Shown here: positions 771 to 23,451 of the stretch, in pieces | Layout: every line of letters begins with the position of its first letter | Position numbering within the stretch: position 1 is the stretch's first letter | IMG/VR virus record: IMGVR_UViG_3300027971_000061 | Span: 1-56,005 of that record | Strand: one strand, 5' to 3' | DNA length: 56,005 nucleotides | Origin: a virus | Taxonomy: Duplodnaviria > Caudoviricetes | Position numbers and translations under genes: made by a program | Notes under the pieces: generated by a model | Seen by the model: only the letters and a program-made list of their open reading frames with translations | Database searches by the model: none | Told to the model about the DNA's origin: nothing

Positions 771-983
771 GTGCATACCATGATTCGCTTCAGCAAAGAA
801 AATTTATTAACGCAATTGCAAAACAAAATTAACCACATGGAAAAAGTTTGGGGTTTTGTTTCTGACAATGGTACAAACCAAATTAAAGACAAAACCGAAT
901 TTGACCGCGTTATGGCTTACGGTGAATACAACTCCCTGCTTGACATTTACGAGTCAATCAAGGATGGAAACTATTTCATATGA
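771..983 (+). CDS. Hypothetical protein (start may be ATG 780)
   Basis: AT-rich 70-aa ORF whose stop overlaps the methyltransferase start (ATGA). Confidence 0.7.
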   Translation: MHTMIRFSKENLLTQLQNKINHMEKVWGFVSDNGTNQIKDKTEFDRVMAYGEYNSLLDIYESIKDGNYFI

Positions 984-2023
984 AATTCCTTGAATTATTT
1001 GCAGGTATTGGTGGCTTCCGCCTTGGGTTAGAAAAGGCGGGTCACCAGTGCGTATGGGCTAACGAATTTATACCAAGAGCGGCAAGCATCTATGAGCACA
1101 ACTTTAAACACAAACCCGACGGACGAGACATACGAGGAATTCACATTGATGAAATCCCCAGCGCCGACCTACTCGTTGGAGGATTTCCATGCGCAACTTT
1201 CAGCGTTGCTGGTAGACGAACAGGATTCGGGACAGAGGATACACGCGGTACTCTCTTTTTTGAGATCTGTCGCATTGCCGCTGGTAAGCGAATCCCATAT
1301 CTATTCCTTGAGAATGTTAAGGGACTCCTCAATCACGACGGAGGACGAACCTTTGGAATTATCATCGCAAGTCTGGATGAACTGGGGTATGACGTCCAAT
1401 GGGAGTGTCTTAACAGCAAGAATTTCGGAGTCCCACAGAATAGGGAACGAGTCTTTATTGTCGCAAGTCTTAGAGGACACCCCAGACCCCAAGTATTTCC
1501 TCTCGGAAGATGTTATGCAGAAGATAGCGTTCAACACCGAGGTGAACAAGATCAAGAACCGCGGGTTCGGAGCGAAGGTGGTCTCACTATCGGAACACTC
1601 TGTCACAGACTTTACAAGGGAGACACTAACAACTTCTACCTTGCTGGACAAGTACGAGGACAGGTTGAACAACTTGAGGACGCTACAGCAGGAGAAAGTG
1701 ACAGCACTTCCGAACCAAATGGATCTGTTCGGGCAGTCCTGACACCAGCCAAAGAAAAGAAGCGCCAGCGTGGTCGCCGAATGAAAGAGCACAACGAACC
1801 AGCATTCACGCTCACAGCTCAAGACAGGCATGGGTTGATGGTTGGGTCACAGCTCAGAAGATTTACTCCGTTAGAGTGCGAGCGTTTGCAGTCGCTACCT
1901 GATGATTGGACGCGCTGGTTTGCAGACGGATCAGAGGTTCCCGACACGCACAGATACGAGCGTTGTGGTCGTGCCGTAACAGTCAACGTGATATACGAAA
2001 TTGCCAAGAGGTTACCAGCATGA
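980..2023 (+). CDS. C5 DNA cytosine methyltransferase-family protein, predicted carboxymethyltransferase
   Basis: Motif I ELFAGIGG, IV GGFPC, VI ENVKGL, VIII QNRERVF, IX RRFTPLECERLQ. Motif X reads CGRAV (Arg331, codon 1970-1972) instead of GNAV. Confidence 0.95.
   Translation: MKFLELFAGIGGFRLGLEKAGHQCVWANEFIPRAASIYEHNFKHKPDGRDIRGIHIDEIPSADLLVGGFPCATFSVAGRRTGFGTEDTRGTLFFEICRIAAGKRIPYLFLENVKGLLNHDGGRTFGIIIASLDELGYDVQWECLNSKNFGVPQNRERVFIVASLRGHPRPQVFPLGRCYAEDSVQHRGEQDQEPRVRSEGGLTIGTLCHRLYKGDTNNFYLAGQVRGQVEQLEDATAGESDSTSEPNGSVRAVLTPAKEKKRQRGRRMKEHNEPAFTLTAQDRHGLMVGSQLRRFTPLECERLQSLPDDWTRWFADGSEVPDTHRYERCGRAVTVNVIYEIAKRLPA
1092..1742 (+). CDS. Overprinted +1-frame protein inside the methyltransferase gene (M.EcoHK31I beta-like arrangement), with C-terminal beta-clamp-like motif
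   Basis: 216 stop-free codons. LSQVLEDTPDPKYFLS resembles the LxxxLE...KYxLS segment of C5 MTases that is missing from the main frame. Ends QMDLFGQS. Confidence 0.7.
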   Translation: MSTTLNTNPTDETYEEFTLMKSPAPTYSLEDFHAQLSALLVDEQDSGQRIHAVLSFLRSVALPLVSESHIYSLRMLRDSSITTEDEPLELSSQVWMNWGMTSNGSVLTARISESHRIGNESLLSQVLEDTPDPKYFLSEDVMQKIAFNTEVNKIKNRGFGAKVVSLSEHSVTDFTRETLTTSTLLDKYEDRLNNLRTLQQEKVTALPNQMDLFGQS

Positions 2024-2835
2024 TTGACATCAAAAAGGTTTTGCTTCAAAGCGCTAGTACACCAGAGACTGACGCGGCTGTTTTGCTTAGTGCAGGGGTA
2101 GACTCATCAAGCGTTCTATTCGCGTTGCTAGAGGCTGGTAAGCGCGTCACAGCGTATTCGTTCTGCTTAGACGATAGAACGTCAACCGATGTGAAGTACG
2201 CGCAGATCACAGCTAAGGAGTTTGGTGTACCGTTTGTGCAGATACCGCTACCCACGAGCATAGACGTGCTCAGGGAGGACTTGGTGGATCTGGTGCGTTT
2301 CGGGGCTAGGAAGAAGACGGACTTTGAGTGTGGTTGGCCAATGCTCTACGCTTACAAAGCCATCCGCGAACGCGAGATCTTCTCTGGCATGGGTGCTGAC
2401 GGACACTTCTGCATCAGCAAAAAAGGAATGATGCACTTCAAAGACAGGATCGACGAGTTCAGGGATACCTTGTTCTCAAACCCCTCCTATGGTCAAGAGC
2501 ACATCCACAAGAAGCTCAGCATGGTCTACAAAAAGAGTTGGGTTGCGCCCTTCATGACGCAGAAGATGATTGACGAGCTTAGGGGAACCACATGGGACGA
2601 GGTTAACCGCCCTCACCAGAAGCAACCTATCCTCGACGCATTCCCTGAGCAGTTCAAGCGTATACGGGTCTTCAAGCACACAAACTTTCAGAAGGGTGAC
2701 TCAGGTATCTCTGAGCACTTTGAGAAGCTCCTAACTACGGATCTGAACGTGGGAAGGCACAAGTCGGTGGTTGGGATCTACAACTACTTAGTCAAAAACT
2801 TAGCGAAAGAAAAAGATGAGCTCTTGGACATTTGA
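2020..2835 (+). CDS. Asparagine-synthetase-like ATP-dependent amide ligase (synthetase domain only)
   Basis: PP-loop VLLSAGVDSS, SGMGADGHF and APF..; no N-terminal Ntn glutaminase domain. ATG 2020 overlaps the MTase stop (ATGA). Confidence 0.85.
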   Translation: MIDIKKVLLQSASTPETDAAVLLSAGVDSSSVLFALLEAGKRVTAYSFCLDDRTSTDVKYAQITAKEFGVPFVQIPLPTSIDVLREDLVDLVRFGARKKTDFECGWPMLYAYKAIREREIFSGMGADGHFCISKKGMMHFKDRIDEFRDTLFSNPSYGQEHIHKKLSMVYKKSWVAPFMTQKMIDELRGTTWDEVNRPHQKQPILDAFPEQFKRIRVFKHTNFQKGDSGISEHFEKLLTTDLNVGRHKSVVGIYNYLVKNLAKEKDELLDI

Positions 2836-3472
2836 AACCCCTGAGATTGCCAGCACGTTTGACTCTCACGTTCGTGAGCAGTTACCGTGGTACGACATGA
2901 CCACAGACGCTGTGTGCTATATCGTGCGCAACTACCTAACCGAAGGCGGTCTCGTGGTGGACGTAGGGTCGTCTACTGGGAACATGCTTAACAAGCTAAT
3001 GCCCTTGCTGAATGAGCGTTTAGCGCAAGCAGTTGCTATTGAGAAAAGCCGCAACATGTGCGAAGTCCTGCAACAGCGCCTAAAGCACCACAACAACGTC
3101 GCCGTGGTTCAGGGTGACATCATTGACTGCGACATCCCAGAGGCTCAGGTCTTTATCGTTTTTCTGACCATGATGTTTATTCCTGTGCACGAGCGTCAGT
3201 TGGTTTTAGAGAACCTCAGAGCGCGTTGCGTTGAAGGTGGGGTGATAGTAGTGGTGGACAAGATCTGTGACCATGGCGGGTACTTTGCGACCGTCCTGAA
3301 GCGCCTCACTATGCAACTCAAGCTCCAGCAGGGAGCCAAGCCAGAGGACGTGCTTAACAAGGAGATGAGTTTGGCAGGGATACAGATCCCAATTGACCCA
3401 GCTATTTTGGGGTCAGACGCGAAGCAATTTTTCCGCATGGGTGAGTTTGCAGGATGGGTAATTGAATGTTAG
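2816..3472 (+). CDS. cmoA: CmoA-like carboxy-SAM synthase / class I SAM-dependent protein
   Basis: WTFETPEIASTFDSHVREQLPWY aligns with CmoA [22 protein letters not shown]. Also VDVGSSTG SAM motif, LTMMFI, GGVIVVVDK and C-terminal FFRMGEFAG. Confidence 0.82.
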   Translation: MSSWTFETPEIASTFDSHVREQLPWYDMTTDAVCYIVRNYLTEGGLVVDVGSSTGNMLNKLMPLLNERLAQAVAIEKSRNMCEVLQQRLKHHNNVAVVQGDIIDCDIPEAQVFIVFLTMMFIPVHERQLVLENLRARCVEGGVIVVVDKICDHGGYFATVLKRLTMQLKLQQGAKPEDVLNKEMSLAGIQIPIDPAILGSDAKQFFRMGEFAGWVIEC

Positions 3473-21396: not shown

Positions 21397-21428
21397 AATG
21401 TTTGGTCAAACTTTTCAAGGAGCAGACC

Positions 21429-22406
21429 ATGCCCCAATTTTCAGATGATCTTTTTCTAGGCTCCGCCATTACCTATCAAGGTGGTGATGCCTATCCTGCT
21501 GTTGCAACTTTTACTGGTTCAATTTCTACCACTACACTAACCGTCACCGCTATGCTGTCTGGTGATCCAATTACTGTTGGTATGTTTATTGACAGTTCAA
21601 CGTCACTCACCAATGGAACTTACATTACCGCTTTTGGTACAGGTTCTGGCGGTACAGGTACTTACACGGTCAGTGCCTCACAAACTGTAGCAAGCGCTAC
21701 GATCATTGGTTCTGGTAATGCTTTGTTGCAAAACCCATCCCCAATGAACGTCGGGGTTGGCCCTCTCGGTCGCCTATACGTTTGGGACGCTGTACCACAG
21801 GCAAAACTAACAACCAACATTGTTGCCGCTGTCATTACAACTGCCACCACGCTCACGCTTGCCGCAGGTGCTGGTGTTACATCCGCTACGCTTACAGGCG
21901 GTGTAACAGGCTTACAACTTGACTGCCCTCGTGCTGTGTCTACTACCACAGGTGCTGGTACTCCAACTTCTGTCAACATTACTGTTTCTGGTTACGACTA
22001 CTACGGTCAAGCCATGAGCGAAGTGATTGCGACAGGTACGGTGGCATCGACAACTGTCAGTGGTAAAAAAGCCTTCTATCAAATCTCTAGTGTCACTGCT
22101 TCTGGTGGAAGCGTCGTAACCGTTGCGGTAGGTACAACCGACATCTTGGGTGCACCATTGCGCATCACTGATCGAGGATACGTTACCCGCGCTGGTTGGG
22201 ACAATACTTTGGCTGAAGATGCTGGCACCCTGACTGTTGCCGCTACCGCTACAGCAACTACCACAACTGGAGATGTGCGCGGAACGTACACCCCTTCTTC
22301 GGCGGCAGACGGTATCAAGCGCCTTGTAATGGGAATAGCCCTGCCAGCAATTGCGGCAGGCCCGAATGCAACTCGTGTTGGCGCGCTTGGCGTCACACAA
22401 GCATAA
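21429..22406 (+). CDS. Thr/Gly/Ala-rich virion structural protein
   Basis: AAGGAG RBS; [13 protein letters not shown]...[13 protein letters not shown] beta-rich module. Confidence 0.75.
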
Positions 22407-22416
22407 GGAGAGCAAC

Positions 22417-23451
22417 ATGGGACAATTTAAACCAATGGTAAAGATGGAGACCACTGAGCCTTCAGTAATATTGAAGCTCAAAAAAGGTGGATCCGTTAAA
22501 AAAGCTATGGGCGGCATGATGGGTGCGCCCATGGATGCCACTATGGCTTCTTCAATGCCTGCACGCGGTGGCATGATGCCCGTTGCTCGTCCTAAGCGTC
22601 CTTCTATGGCGGCACGTCGTGCGGCTATGGCTGGCGCCACCATGAAGGAAGGCGGTATGTCAGACACTGCTCAGGACAAAGCCATGGTCAAGAAGGCTTT
22701 TAAACAGCACGATATGCAAGAGCATAAAGGCGGTAAAGGCACTGACTTGAAGCTTAATAAAGGCGGCAAGATGGCTACTGGTGGTGTTGTAAACGGTCAA
22801 GGTGGCTATGCCACTGGCGGCGTAGTCAATGGTAACGGTGGCGGTTACAAAGAAGGCGGTATGCCCATGAAAAACGGTAAACCCGCTTTTATTGGCGACG
22901 GCGAGGGCAAGATGAAAAAGGGCGGGAAAGCCATGGCTACTGGCGGTGTTGCATTGGGTAACGCTGGTGGTTACAAAAAAGGTGGTGCCTCAAAAAAGCA
23001 CTACGCGACGGGGGGAACTGTTAATTCAGGCAAACCCGTCGCGATGCCACAAGGCGATAAAAAGCCATCCGCTCCTGTCAGCACTAACCGTATATCTGGC
23101 ACCTTTAAAACAGGTGGCAGTGTAACGCCAGCCCAAAAGAAAGAGCAATCTGCCTACAAGGGTGAGAATGCTACTGCGATGAAGCAAGCGAAAGCCCAGA
23201 GCAACGAGAAGTATCAATCTGGCGGAGCGGCAACAACTGACCTGTCAAAAGGTGCTTACGACAAATCCATCGGCCCCTCTGAGAGTGATATGGACATGGC
23301 TAAAACCATCCGTAGCATCCCCAGCAAGCTGATGGAAGGTGCTAAGAGCCTGTTTACTAACAAGGATAAGCCTTCTGGCTCTGTTACTAAGACTGAAAAG
23401 TCCGTGACTGTTACCCCTGCTAGAAAACGTGGTGGTGCAGTAAATTGCTAA
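22417..23451 (+). CDS. Basic low-complexity internal head protein with tandem xxxGG motifs
   Basis: AAGGAG RBS; about 14 copies such as LKKGG, MATGG, YATGG, YKKGG, FKTGG. Confidence 0.8.
   Translation: MGQFKPMVKMETTEPSVILKLKKGGSVKKAMGGMMGAPMDATMASSMPARGGMMPVARPKRPSMAARRAAMAGATMKEGGMSDTAQDKAMVKKAFKQHDMQEHKGGKGTDLKLNKGGKMATGGVVNGQGGYATGGVVNGNGGGYKEGGMPMKNGKPAFIGDGEGKMKKGGKAMATGGVALGNAGGYKKGGASKKHYATGGTVNSGKPVAMPQGDKKPSAPVSTNRISGTFKTGGSVTPAQKKEQSAYKGENATAMKQAKAQSNEKYQSGGAATTDLSKGAYDKSIGPSESDMDMAKTIRSIPSKLMEGAKSLFTNKDKPSGSVTKTEKSVTVTPARKRGGAVNC

What the first reader, a model, noticed from the sequence alone, without database searches (positions are those of the whole stretch)
1092..1742. Overprinted second subunit inside the MTase gene, ending in a beta-clamp-binding-like motif
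Seen: a 216-codon +1-frame ORF nested in the MTase. It contains LSQVLEDTPDPKYFLS, an MTase-like segment absent from the main frame, and ends QMDLFGQS (QMDLF at 1716-1730). Established: M.EcoHK31I is a heterodimer whose beta chain is encoded in an alternative frame of the alpha gene, and QL[SD]LF-type peptides bind the DnaN clamp. Inference: a split enzyme whose small subunit tethers the modification complex to the host replisome for co-replicative modification. This fits a phage with no DNA polymerase of its own.
Basis: partly seen in the sequence, partly recalled or inferred. Interest (0 to 1): 0.85.

Follow-up and report, generated by a model that had tools for sequence, protein, structure and literature searches.

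The report
Conserved overlapping gene inside phage methyltransferase
A second protein is encoded in a shifted reading frame inside this phage's DNA cytosine methyltransferase gene; evolution has preserved it in many related phages, and it probably supplies a missing piece of the enzyme and may link it to the host's replication clamp.

Summary
ORF 1092..1742 (216 codons, +1 frame) lies inside the C5 methyltransferase gene 980..2023.

It is not a chance ORF:
- The same frame is open for 143-251 codons in 47 of 49 distinct homologous genes, down to about 38% MTase identity. Synonymous-codon shuffles expect 3.3-10.1 stops there (P of none at most 0.015 per gene).
- Main-frame synonymous sites are constrained inside the ORF.
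- Downstream of KYFLS the +1 frame is more conserved than the main frame.

The +1 protein carries the segment that follows motif VIII in canonical Dcm. A relative matches E. coli Dcm 310-361 at E 2e-5, and the main frame lacks this segment. A complex model places this segment against motif IX (score 0.81, best control 0.00).

All 37 genes of the window's own clade end in Q-x-x-[LM]-F, although the overlapping main-frame residues vary.

Best reading: a real overprinted beta subunit that completes the enzyme in trans, as in M.EcoHK31I. Its clamp-binding-like tail has not been tested for binding.

The nested ORF is already annotated in some phages (MM1 "beta subunit"; PHROG 16143), so this is a new variant of a known kind.

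The parts
980..2023 (+). alpha: C5 cytosine DNA methyltransferase gene (347 aa), main frame. It has motifs I (FAGIGG), IV (GFPC), VI (ENV), VIII (QNRER), IX (RRFTPLECERLQ) and X (GRAVTVNV).
   Evidence: ORF. (PF00145, E 3.3e-78, full length). (residues 1-161 match E. coli Dcm 87-282, E 2e-36).
1092..1742 (+). beta: nested +1-frame ORF, 216 codons plus TGA. The stop-free stretch starts at 1032.
   Evidence: the frame is open in 47 of 49 distinct homologues; shuffle P at most 0.015. (PHROG 16143, E 1.1e-31). (2457 cluster representatives match the profile at E<=1e-3).
1134..1151 (+). Possible alternative beta start: GAGGAA at 1134-1139, followed by TTG at 1146 and ATG at 1149. ATG 1092 itself has no Shine-Dalgarno-like sequence in the window.
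   Evidence: In 14 of 37 own-clade genes the conserved ATG equivalent to 1092 has GGAG, AGGA or AAGGAG 9-11 nt upstream. The window's sub-clade does not.
1092..1421 (+). beta N-terminal part, overprinted on alpha motifs III-VIII (S.EDF.A.LSALL, IYSLR, WMNWGMT.NG..LTA). Constraint is moderate and model confidence is low.
   Evidence: same-amino-acid codon identity is higher than outside the ORF in 22 of 24 pairs; pLDDT is below 50 for most of residues 1-127; beta 92-106 is predicted to pair with alpha 138-145.
1422..1607 (+). beta residues 111-172: the Dcm-like segment, equivalent to E. coli Dcm 299-360, the stretch that follows motif VIII. It includes LSQVLEDTPDPKYFLS (1458-1505) and KNRGFGAKVV. 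This is the most strongly constrained part of beta.
   Evidence: BLASTP E 0.027 and 2e-5; hhalign E 0.0077 but probability only 5%. (the region from about 12 codons before KYFLS to the stop has codon identity 0.59-1.00). (from KYFLS on, the +1 frame is more conserved than the main frame in 26 of 28 pairs). (the main frame aligns poorly to Dcm 299-360).
1716..1730 (+). QMDLF: a clamp-binding-like pentapeptide, 8 residues from the beta C-terminus.
   Evidence: All 37 own-clade genes have Q..[LM]F 5-17 residues from the end. Q and F are invariant. Position 4 is L or M through 6 different codons, while the overlapping main-frame residue is S, L, H, P or F. The consensus QL(S/D)LF comes from PMC9690074 (passages).

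Best explanation
The +1 ORF is a real, translated overlapping gene ('beta') inside the C5 methyltransferase gene ('alpha'). It is conserved across a large subfamily of phage and prophage C5 MTases.

The gene is collinear with a canonical Dcm only if three pieces are read in order: alpha through motif VIII, then the +1 frame (SLLSQVLEDTPDPKYFLS...KNRGFGAKVV), then alpha again (LTIGTLCHRLYKGD..., motifs IX and X). The start of the small, target-recognition domain is therefore encoded only in beta.

Most likely beta is made from its own start codon. It binds alpha through a strand (WMNWGMT) that adds to the edge of the catalytic sheet, and it places the KYFLS segment against motif IX. In this way it completes the enzyme in trans, as the nested beta chain of M.EcoHK31I does.

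In the window's clade beta has an added tail ending in Q-[ML]-[DS]-L-F. This may bind the host sliding clamp and so bring the enzyme to replicating phage DNA.

Shown here: conservation of the frame, selection on it, and homology of the segment. Inferred: translation, alpha-beta binding (model only) and clamp binding (motif only). The confidence given is for 'translated gene whose product is a subunit of the MTase'; the clamp step alone I put at about 0.3-0.35.
For: Frame kept open:
- 47 of 49 distinct genes keep the +1 frame open for 143-251 codons. These are 45 from 56 IMG/VR loci selected by main-frame similarity, plus the window and 3 Streptococcus phages. The +2 frame's longest open stretch is 20-96 codons.
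- Codon shuffles expect 3.3-10.1 stops in the stretch. P of none is 0 to 0.015 per gene.
- Of 80 further loci fetched with P0141, 74 have KYFLS in the +1 frame just after motif VIII.
- 130 isolated-phage records hold the frame.

Selection on the frame:
- Same-amino-acid codon identity is higher inside than outside the ORF in 23 of 24 pairs, with p<0.05 in 16.
- It is strongest from just before KYFLS to the stop, 0.59-1.00.
- From KYFLS on, +1-frame identity exceeds main-frame identity in 26 of 28 pairs, and the main frame behaves like the non-coding third frame.

Homology of the segment:
- beta 123-164 matches E. coli Dcm 310-351, E 0.027.
- Relative P0069 123-173 matches Dcm 310-361, E 2e-5.
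- Alpha matches Dcm significantly only at 1-161 against 87-282.
- In a gapped alignment alpha shares 16 identical residues in 79 columns across Dcm 299-360.

Binding model:
- Complex prediction gave score 0.81 (runs 0.82, 0.81, 0.80) with best control 0.00. This mark was reached by 58 of 80 solved complexes and 2 of 110 mismatched pairs.
- Partner pLDDT is at least 49, and the runs agree in at least 37% of contacts.
- The interface is alpha 114-152, 173-176 and 290-303 with beta 92-137.

Tail:
- 37 of 37 own-clade genes have Q..[LM]F near the C-terminus, while the overlapping main-frame residues vary.
- The QMDLF residues are not among the confident alpha contacts.

Precedent: M.EcoHK31I beta lies entirely in another frame of alpha and is required for activity (PMC2836561, passages).
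Against: - There is no direct evidence of translation.
- ATG 1092 has no Shine-Dalgarno-like sequence in the window, and only 14 of 37 clade members have one at that ATG.
- The AF2 model of beta alone is poor: mean pLDDT 53, and residues 1-127 are mostly below 50.
- The complex score may reflect the model's memory of single-chain MTase folds, because the beta segment is homologous to an internal MTase segment. My own alignments were used, so the calibration holds only roughly.
- hhalign of the beta profile against Dcm gives only 5% probability. NCBIfam does not hit the isolated segment, and no PDB chain matches the profile.
- Pfam aligns the main frame to the whole PF00145 profile, so alpha may fold without beta.
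- The terminal QxxLF is not family-wide. At the C-terminus it occurs in 2 of 145 representatives. A strict N-terminal version occurs in 18 of 145, or in 10 of 91 where the full N-terminal part is present.
- Position 2 of the motif is M, not the consensus L.
- The host, and therefore its DnaN, is unknown.
Confidence: 0.6

Rival explanations
1. Beta is a real protein but not an MTase subunit. It is a stand-alone clamp-targeting or regulatory protein, for example one that occupies the host DnaN cleft to interfere with host replication, or one that modulates the MTase. It would merely be housed in the MTase gene.
For: The terminal QxxLF is conserved in 37 of 37 clade genes. The tail region, residues 130-205, is the only part modelled with confidence (pLDDT 68-86). 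Toxins such as SocB bind the clamp through the usual motif (PMC9690074, passages).
Against: The most constrained part of beta is the Dcm-like segment, not the tail. The wider family keeps that segment (KYFLS-like in 135 of 145 representatives) and mostly lacks QxxLF. The complex model places beta on alpha, with controls at 0.00.
Confidence: 0.15
2. One polypeptide is made by two ribosomal frameshifts, +1 after motif VIII and -1 near 1583. This would give a canonical single-chain Dcm, so the +1 frame is conserved only over the stretch that is skipped into.
For: Collinearity with E. coli Dcm requires exactly this reading path.
Against: The +1 frame is kept open, and its synonymous sites constrained, for more than 110 codons upstream of the segment. 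There is a conserved ATG, and 14 of 37 genes have a Shine-Dalgarno-like sequence there. The main frame across the same nucleotides is open and conserved (hLRG..VFP.G). The +1 frame runs on to a conserved C-terminal motif beyond the point where the shift back would occur. I did not scan for slippery sites.
Confidence: 0.05
3. The frame is not translated. Its openness and conservation are by-products of strong main-frame conservation, codon usage or nucleotide-level constraints, for example frequent recombination between phage MTase genes.
For: The DNA is unusually conserved: about 70-74% identity to Streptococcus phage MTase genes over window 1177-1504. Antisense frames of these genes are also rather open, though variably, with longest stretches of 57-208 codons. 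Gene callers produce shadow ORFs.
Against: Codon shuffles that keep the protein and the codon usage almost never give an open frame. Canonical dcm has 14 stops in its +1 frame. From KYFLS on, the +1 frame is more conserved than the main frame. The QxxLF positions are kept through different codons while the main-frame residues change. The segment has protein-level similarity to Dcm.
Confidence: 0.05

Closest known systems
M.EcoHK31I alpha/beta heterodimeric C5 methyltransferase
   Same: [quoted passage not shown] Beta carries a conserved MTase element that alpha lacks, and both chains are needed for activity. The N-terminal part of beta contributes to association (PMC2836561, passages read).
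   Different: There beta carries motif IX. Here motif IX (RRFTPLECERLQ) is in alpha, and beta carries the segment after motif VIII (Dcm 299-360 equivalent). I could not obtain the EcoHK31I sequence, so homology of the two beta chains is untested. No clamp motif is reported for EcoHK31I in the passages I read.
Streptococcus phage MM1 orf13/orf14 (GenBank DQ113772, annotated 'C5 methyltransferase alpha subunit / beta subunit') and PHROG 16143
   Same: The arrangement is the same: orf14 (L002 1140..1565) is nested in the +1 frame of orf13. Its product is homologous to the window's beta (S.EDF.A.LSAL, WMNWGMM.NG, SLSDILE..YFLS). PHROG 16143 matches the window's beta at E 1.1e-31.
   Different: The Streptococcus versions are shorter (141-160 aa) and stop soon after KYFLS. 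They lack the helix-hairpin-helix tail and the C-terminal QxxLF. MM1 and Javan577 have QMTLF and QMSLF near the N-terminus instead; phage 5093 has neither. I found no functional study. The MM1 paper (PMC151507) is not held.
E. coli Dcm (canonical single-chain C5 MTase)
   Same: Alpha 1-161 matches Dcm 87-282 (E 2e-36). Beta 123-164 matches Dcm 310-351. The alpha C-terminal part carries motifs IX and X.
   Different: Dcm encodes everything in one frame, and its +1 frame has 14 stops. In the window the post-motif-VIII segment lies in another frame and overlaps the alpha residues that follow motif VIII.
Eukaryotic Dnmt1 bound to PCNA through a PCNA-binding motif (functional analogy only)
   Same: A cytosine-5 methyltransferase is recruited to newly replicated DNA by a short clamp-binding peptide (PMC9690074, passages).
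   Different: This is a different clamp and a different motif, and in Dnmt1 the motif is in the enzyme itself. Here the motif would sit on a separate overprinted subunit, and binding is untested.

Membership tests
C5 cytosine DNA methyltransferase (PF00145): main frame | Full-length match to the family profile with motifs I, IV (PC), VI (ENV), VIII (QxRxR), IX and X | tested here: met
   E 3.3e-78, residues 1-345 against profile positions 1-322 of 324. The motifs are visible. Motif X reads GRAV in the window's clade, against GNAV or GNSV in the other clades aligned.
M.EcoHK31I-type nested alpha/beta MTase | The beta ORF lies wholly inside the alpha gene in another frame | tested here: met
   1092..1742 lies within 980..2023, +1 frame.
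M.EcoHK31I-type nested alpha/beta MTase | Beta carries motif IX, which alpha lacks | tested here: not met
   Motif IX is in the main frame (RRFTPLECERLQ). Beta instead carries the Dcm 299-360 equivalent, which alpha lacks. The logic is the same but the element is different.
M.EcoHK31I-type nested alpha/beta MTase | Both chains associate and are required for methylation | not testable with these tools
   There is only a model: complex prediction score 0.81 against best control 0.00.
M.EcoHK31I-type nested alpha/beta MTase | Sequence homology of beta to M.EcoHK31I beta | not tested
   No tool gave me the EcoHK31I sequence.
PHROG 16143 (phage proteins annotated 'DNA methyltransferase', 139 positions) | Significant profile match | tested here: met
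   E 1.1e-31, beta residues 21-146 against profile positions 13-136.
Bacterial beta-clamp-binding proteins (motif QL[SD]LF) | A pentapeptide matching the consensus, near a terminus | tested here: met
   QMDLF lies 8 residues from the C-terminus. Position 2 is M rather than L. Clade variants include QLSLF and QLGLF. The consensus is from PMC9690074.
Bacterial beta-clamp-binding proteins (motif QL[SD]LF) | The motif is conserved among orthologues independently of its surroundings | tested here: met
   37 of 37 own-clade genes have it, with linkers of different length and sequence. Outside the clade it is absent from the C-terminus, and it is present N-terminally only in a minority.
Bacterial beta-clamp-binding proteins (motif QL[SD]LF) | Physical binding to DnaN | not testable with these tools

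The most novel reading that the evidence does not exclude
A phage C5 methyltransferase is split between two overlapping reading frames of one gene. The overprinted subunit both completes the enzyme's DNA-recognition domain and, through a terminal QxxLF peptide, couples it to the host sliding clamp. Phage DNA would then be methylated as it is replicated by the host polymerase. This would be a prokaryotic counterpart of Dnmt1-PCNA, achieved through an overlapping gene that is conserved in thousands of MTase gene clusters.
Probability: 0.3. Interest if true: 0.85.

Novelty: new variant of a known kind. Interest (0 to 1): 0.68.

Why it matters
- Long same-strand overlapping genes that are conserved over wide divergence are rare in bacteria and phages, and annotation usually discards them. 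This one is supported by several independent comparative tests and occurs in a very large family: 2457 cluster representatives and 130 isolated phages.
- If beta is a required subunit, many phage 'orphan' C5 MTases are really two-chain enzymes. Expressing the annotated gene with altered codons would then silently remove a subunit. That matters for anti-restriction biology, methylome interpretation and enzyme engineering.
- The arrangement, in which an internal segment of a canonical enzyme is encoded in another frame and supplied in trans, is a clear case for studying how overprinting arises.
- A clamp tether for a prokaryotic DNA methyltransferase does not appear in the library I searched. 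It would give a mechanism for co-replicative protection of phage DNA.

Tried and rejected
- **Chance ORF:** rejected by codon shuffles, by the survey of this genome's other genes, and by E. coli dcm.
- **Composition artefact:** the +2 frame of the same genes has 14-43 stops.
- **In-frame fusion proteins:** some database proteins join a beta-like N-domain to TRD-IX-X in one frame (P0099, P0141, P0204, P0212, P0236, P0244). I first read these as natural split or two-frame MTases. Of 74 loci with the arrangement, motif IX lies in the alpha frame in 68, in the beta frame in 3 and in the third frame in 1, and was not found in 2. L109 and L112 have the same beta-ORF coordinates, and their motif IX offsets differ by 1 nt. 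These forms are therefore probably indels or sequencing errors, and I do not build on them.
- **tblastn of Dcm against the genes to show frame jumping:** gapped frame-1 alignments absorbed the region, and only L018 gave a separate +1-frame match (E 0.11). This was not informative.
- **Searches that returned nothing:** Pfam and NCBIfam on beta; PDB sequence search with the beta profile.
- **Protein atlas:** only scores of 0.78 or lower, which the tool rates as leads at most.
- **Antisense ORF 1301..1831:** openness in relatives is variable (57-208 codons), so I treat it as a by-product.
- **Literature:** The searches on EcoHK31I, on overlapping or alternative-frame MTase subunits, on clamp-binding motif with methyltransferase and phage, on DnaN with cytosine methyltransferase, and on overprinting with DNA methyltransferase found no paper describing this beta family or a clamp-bound bacterial or phage MTase. 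Most subscription papers are not in that library. Supplements were not opened.
Full report
**Observation**

The window is a complete 56,005-base IMG/VR virus record. ORF 980..2023 (+) is a full-length C5 cytosine methyltransferase: PF00145, E 3.3e-78. ORF 1092..1742 (+), 216 codons, lies inside it in the +1 frame. It contains LSQVLEDTPDPKYFLS (1458-1505) and ends QMDLFGQS, with QMDLF at 1716-1730.

**Is the frame kept open in relatives?**

- I fetched relatives by main-frame similarity only (63 loci, 98% to 32% identity). I used 56 of them and left out 7 partial matches, then added the window and three Streptococcus phage genes found by blastn.
- After collapsing identical genes there were 49. 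In 47 of them the +1 frame is open for 143-251 codons at the same place. The +2 frame has 14-43 stops.
- The two exceptions are L060/L065 (33% identity, no nested ORF) and L061/L062 (a 1-nt frame break after GFPC that interrupts both frames).
- Shuffling synonymous codons within each gene, 2000 times, predicts 3.3-10.1 stops in the stretch. Shuffles gave none in 0 to 1.5% of cases for these 47 genes.
- E. coli dcm has 14 stops in its +1 frame. No other gene of at least 200 aa in this phage has an alternative-frame stretch above 177 codons.
- A second set of 80 loci, fetched with a database protein, has the arrangement of motif VIII followed within 120 nt by KYFLS in the +1 frame in 74 cases. 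That set is partly biased towards the frame, because some search patterns came from it.
- tblastn of beta finds 130 isolated-phage records: Streptococcus 96, Lactococcus 7, and others.
- A profile of beta finds 2457 cluster representatives at E<=1e-3 and 373 at E<=1e-30.

**Is the frame under selection?**

- Main-frame third positions are +1-frame second positions, so selection on beta should depress main-frame synonymous change.
- Among aligned codons with the same amino acid, codon identity is higher inside the ORF than outside in 23 of 24 pairs. For example it is 0.79 against 0.47 for the window and L013 (p 3e-7), and 0.65 against 0.26 for the window and Streptococcus phage 5093 (p 2e-5). 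16 of the 24 pairs have p<0.05. The pairs are not independent.
- Split in two, the part upstream of SLSDILE exceeds the outside in 22 of 24 pairs. The part from about 12 codons before KYFLS to the stop is the most constrained, at 0.59-1.00.
- From KYFLS to the stop, +1-frame amino-acid identity exceeds main-frame identity in 26 of 28 own-clade pairs, with one equal and one lower. The main frame is about as conserved as the non-coding third frame.

**What beta encodes**

- Pfam and NCBIfam do not hit beta. PHROG 16143, annotated 'DNA methyltransferase', does, at E 1.1e-31.
- In GenBank record DQ113772 (phage MM1) the equivalent nested ORF is annotated 'C5 methyltransferase beta subunit'. So the ORF has been noticed before.
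- BLASTP against E. coli K-12 Dcm aligns beta 123-164 with Dcm 310-351 (E 0.027). It aligns the relative P0069 123-173 with Dcm 310-361 (E 2e-5). hhalign aligns beta 111-172 with Dcm 299-360 (E 0.0077, probability only 5%).
- The main frame aligns significantly with Dcm only through motif VIII: 1-161 against 87-282, E 2e-36. Across Dcm 299-360 it shares 16 identical residues in 79 columns, 18 of which are gap columns.
- The gene is thus collinear with Dcm only by reading alpha, then beta, then alpha. The start of the small domain is present only in beta.
- This is not a simple double frameshift of a collinear ancestor. The beta segment overlaps the alpha residues immediately after motif VIII (hLRG..VFP.G), and these are themselves conserved.

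**Does beta bind alpha?**

- Complex prediction with my alignments A2 (alpha) and A1 (beta) gave 0.82, 0.81 and 0.80 in three runs. The best of three controls was 0.00. This mark was reached by 58 of 80 solved complexes and 2 of 110 mismatched pairs.
- Partner pLDDT was 49-59, and the runs agree in at least 37% of contacts.
- The confident contacts are beta 92-106 (WMNWGMT) against alpha 138-145 (DVQWEC), and beta 113-137 (including LEDTPDPKYFLS) against alpha 173-176 and 290-303 (motif IX).
- The model supports binding but does not show it. Because the beta segment is homologous to an internal segment of single-chain MTases, the pass may be from likeness to solved folds.
- Beta alone folds poorly (mean pLDDT 53). 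Only residues 130-205 are confident: helix 139-154, hairpin 162-173, helix 186-204.

**The tail**

- In all 37 distinct genes of the window's clade (MTase identity at least about 64%), beta has Q..[LM]F 5-17 residues from its end. The variants are QMDLF 14, QLGLF 7, QMSLF 3, QMDMF 3, and single or double cases including QLSLF. The linkers differ in length and sequence.
- Q and F never change. Position 4 is L or M through six different codons, while the overlapping main-frame residue is S, L, H, P or F. That is selection in the +1 frame.
- The motif fits the bacterial clamp-binding pentapeptide QL(S/D)LF, which is usually C-terminal (PMC9690074, passages).
- The QMDLF residues are not among the confident alpha contacts.
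- Outside the clade the C-terminal motif is absent. A strict Q..[LMI]F lies in the N-terminal zone of 10 of 91 representatives, against 1 of 346 control windows. Examples are QMTLF in MM1 and QMSLF in Javan577.
- The motif is therefore recurrent but not a family-wide feature, and binding to DnaN is untested.
- The record has no DnaN, PolA, PolB or PolIII-alpha. This is consistent with replication by host enzymes, for these families only.

**Start codon**

ATG 1092 is conserved in most of the clade. It has an AAGGAG-like sequence 9-11 nt upstream in 14 of 37 genes, but not in the window's sub-clade. There, GAGGAA (1134-1139) precedes TTG 1146 and ATG 1149. The exact N-terminus is open.

**Comparison with known systems**

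- The closest known system is M.EcoHK31I. Its beta chain is encoded entirely in another frame of alpha, carries motif IX and is needed for activity (PMC2836561, passages). Here the logic is the same but the transferred element differs, and homology to that beta is untested.
- My literature searches found no description of this beta family's function or of a clamp-bound bacterial or phage MTase. The MM1 paper and the Murphy 2013 review are not held.

**Verdict**

This is a real, conserved overlapping gene. It is most likely a trans-acting subunit of the methyltransferase, with a clade-specific clamp-binding-like tail. My estimates:

| Claim | Probability |
|---|---|
| Beta is a translated gene | about 0.9 |
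| Beta binds and completes alpha | about 0.6 |
| Beta tethers the enzyme to the clamp | about 0.3-0.35 |

Noticed in passing
window 2020-3472: Two genes lie directly downstream of the MTase and overlap each other. 2020..2835 is a PP-loop ATPase-like protein (PHROG 26038, E 1.8e-58; weak QueC-like hit, 1.9e-6). 2816..3472 is a SAM-dependent methyltransferase (PHROG 4752, 'tRNA methyltransferase', E 3.7e-42). With the C5 MTase they may form a nucleic-acid modification cluster.
   Followed up: partly
L061 616-1525 and L062 3001-3910: Two MTase homologues from different metagenome records share a 1-nt frame break immediately after GFPC. It interrupts both the MTase frame and the nested beta frame. 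It could be a pseudogene, a shared error or a real recoding or phase-variation site.
   Followed up: partly
window 1301-1831 (- strand): A 176-codon antisense ORF also lies inside the MTase gene. Relatives have antisense open stretches of variable length (57-208 codons) that are not fixed in place. It is probably a by-product of two constrained sense frames.
   Followed up: partly
window 21912-22667 (- strand): This 251-codon ORF is antisense to the two + strand ORFs 21402..22406 and 22351..23451. It is the only other long ORF nested against the genes around it in the list of ORFs of at least 200 aa.
   Followed up: no
protein P0221 (689 aa, database representative): A beta-like N-domain is followed by an insert of about 400 aa with a weak radical-SAM match (E 9.7e-4, below the cut-off), and then by MTase motifs IX-X in one frame.
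   Followed up: no
window 1966-1992 (motif X of alpha): Motif X reads GRAVTVNV in the window's clade, where the other clades aligned have GNAV or GNSV. The usual Asn is replaced by Arg.
   Followed up: no
window 1177-1504: This stretch has about 70-74% nucleotide identity to MTase genes of Streptococcus, Lactococcus, Enterococcus and Clostridium phages (140 records). That is unusually high for such distant phages, and it is explained by dual coding.
   Followed up: yes
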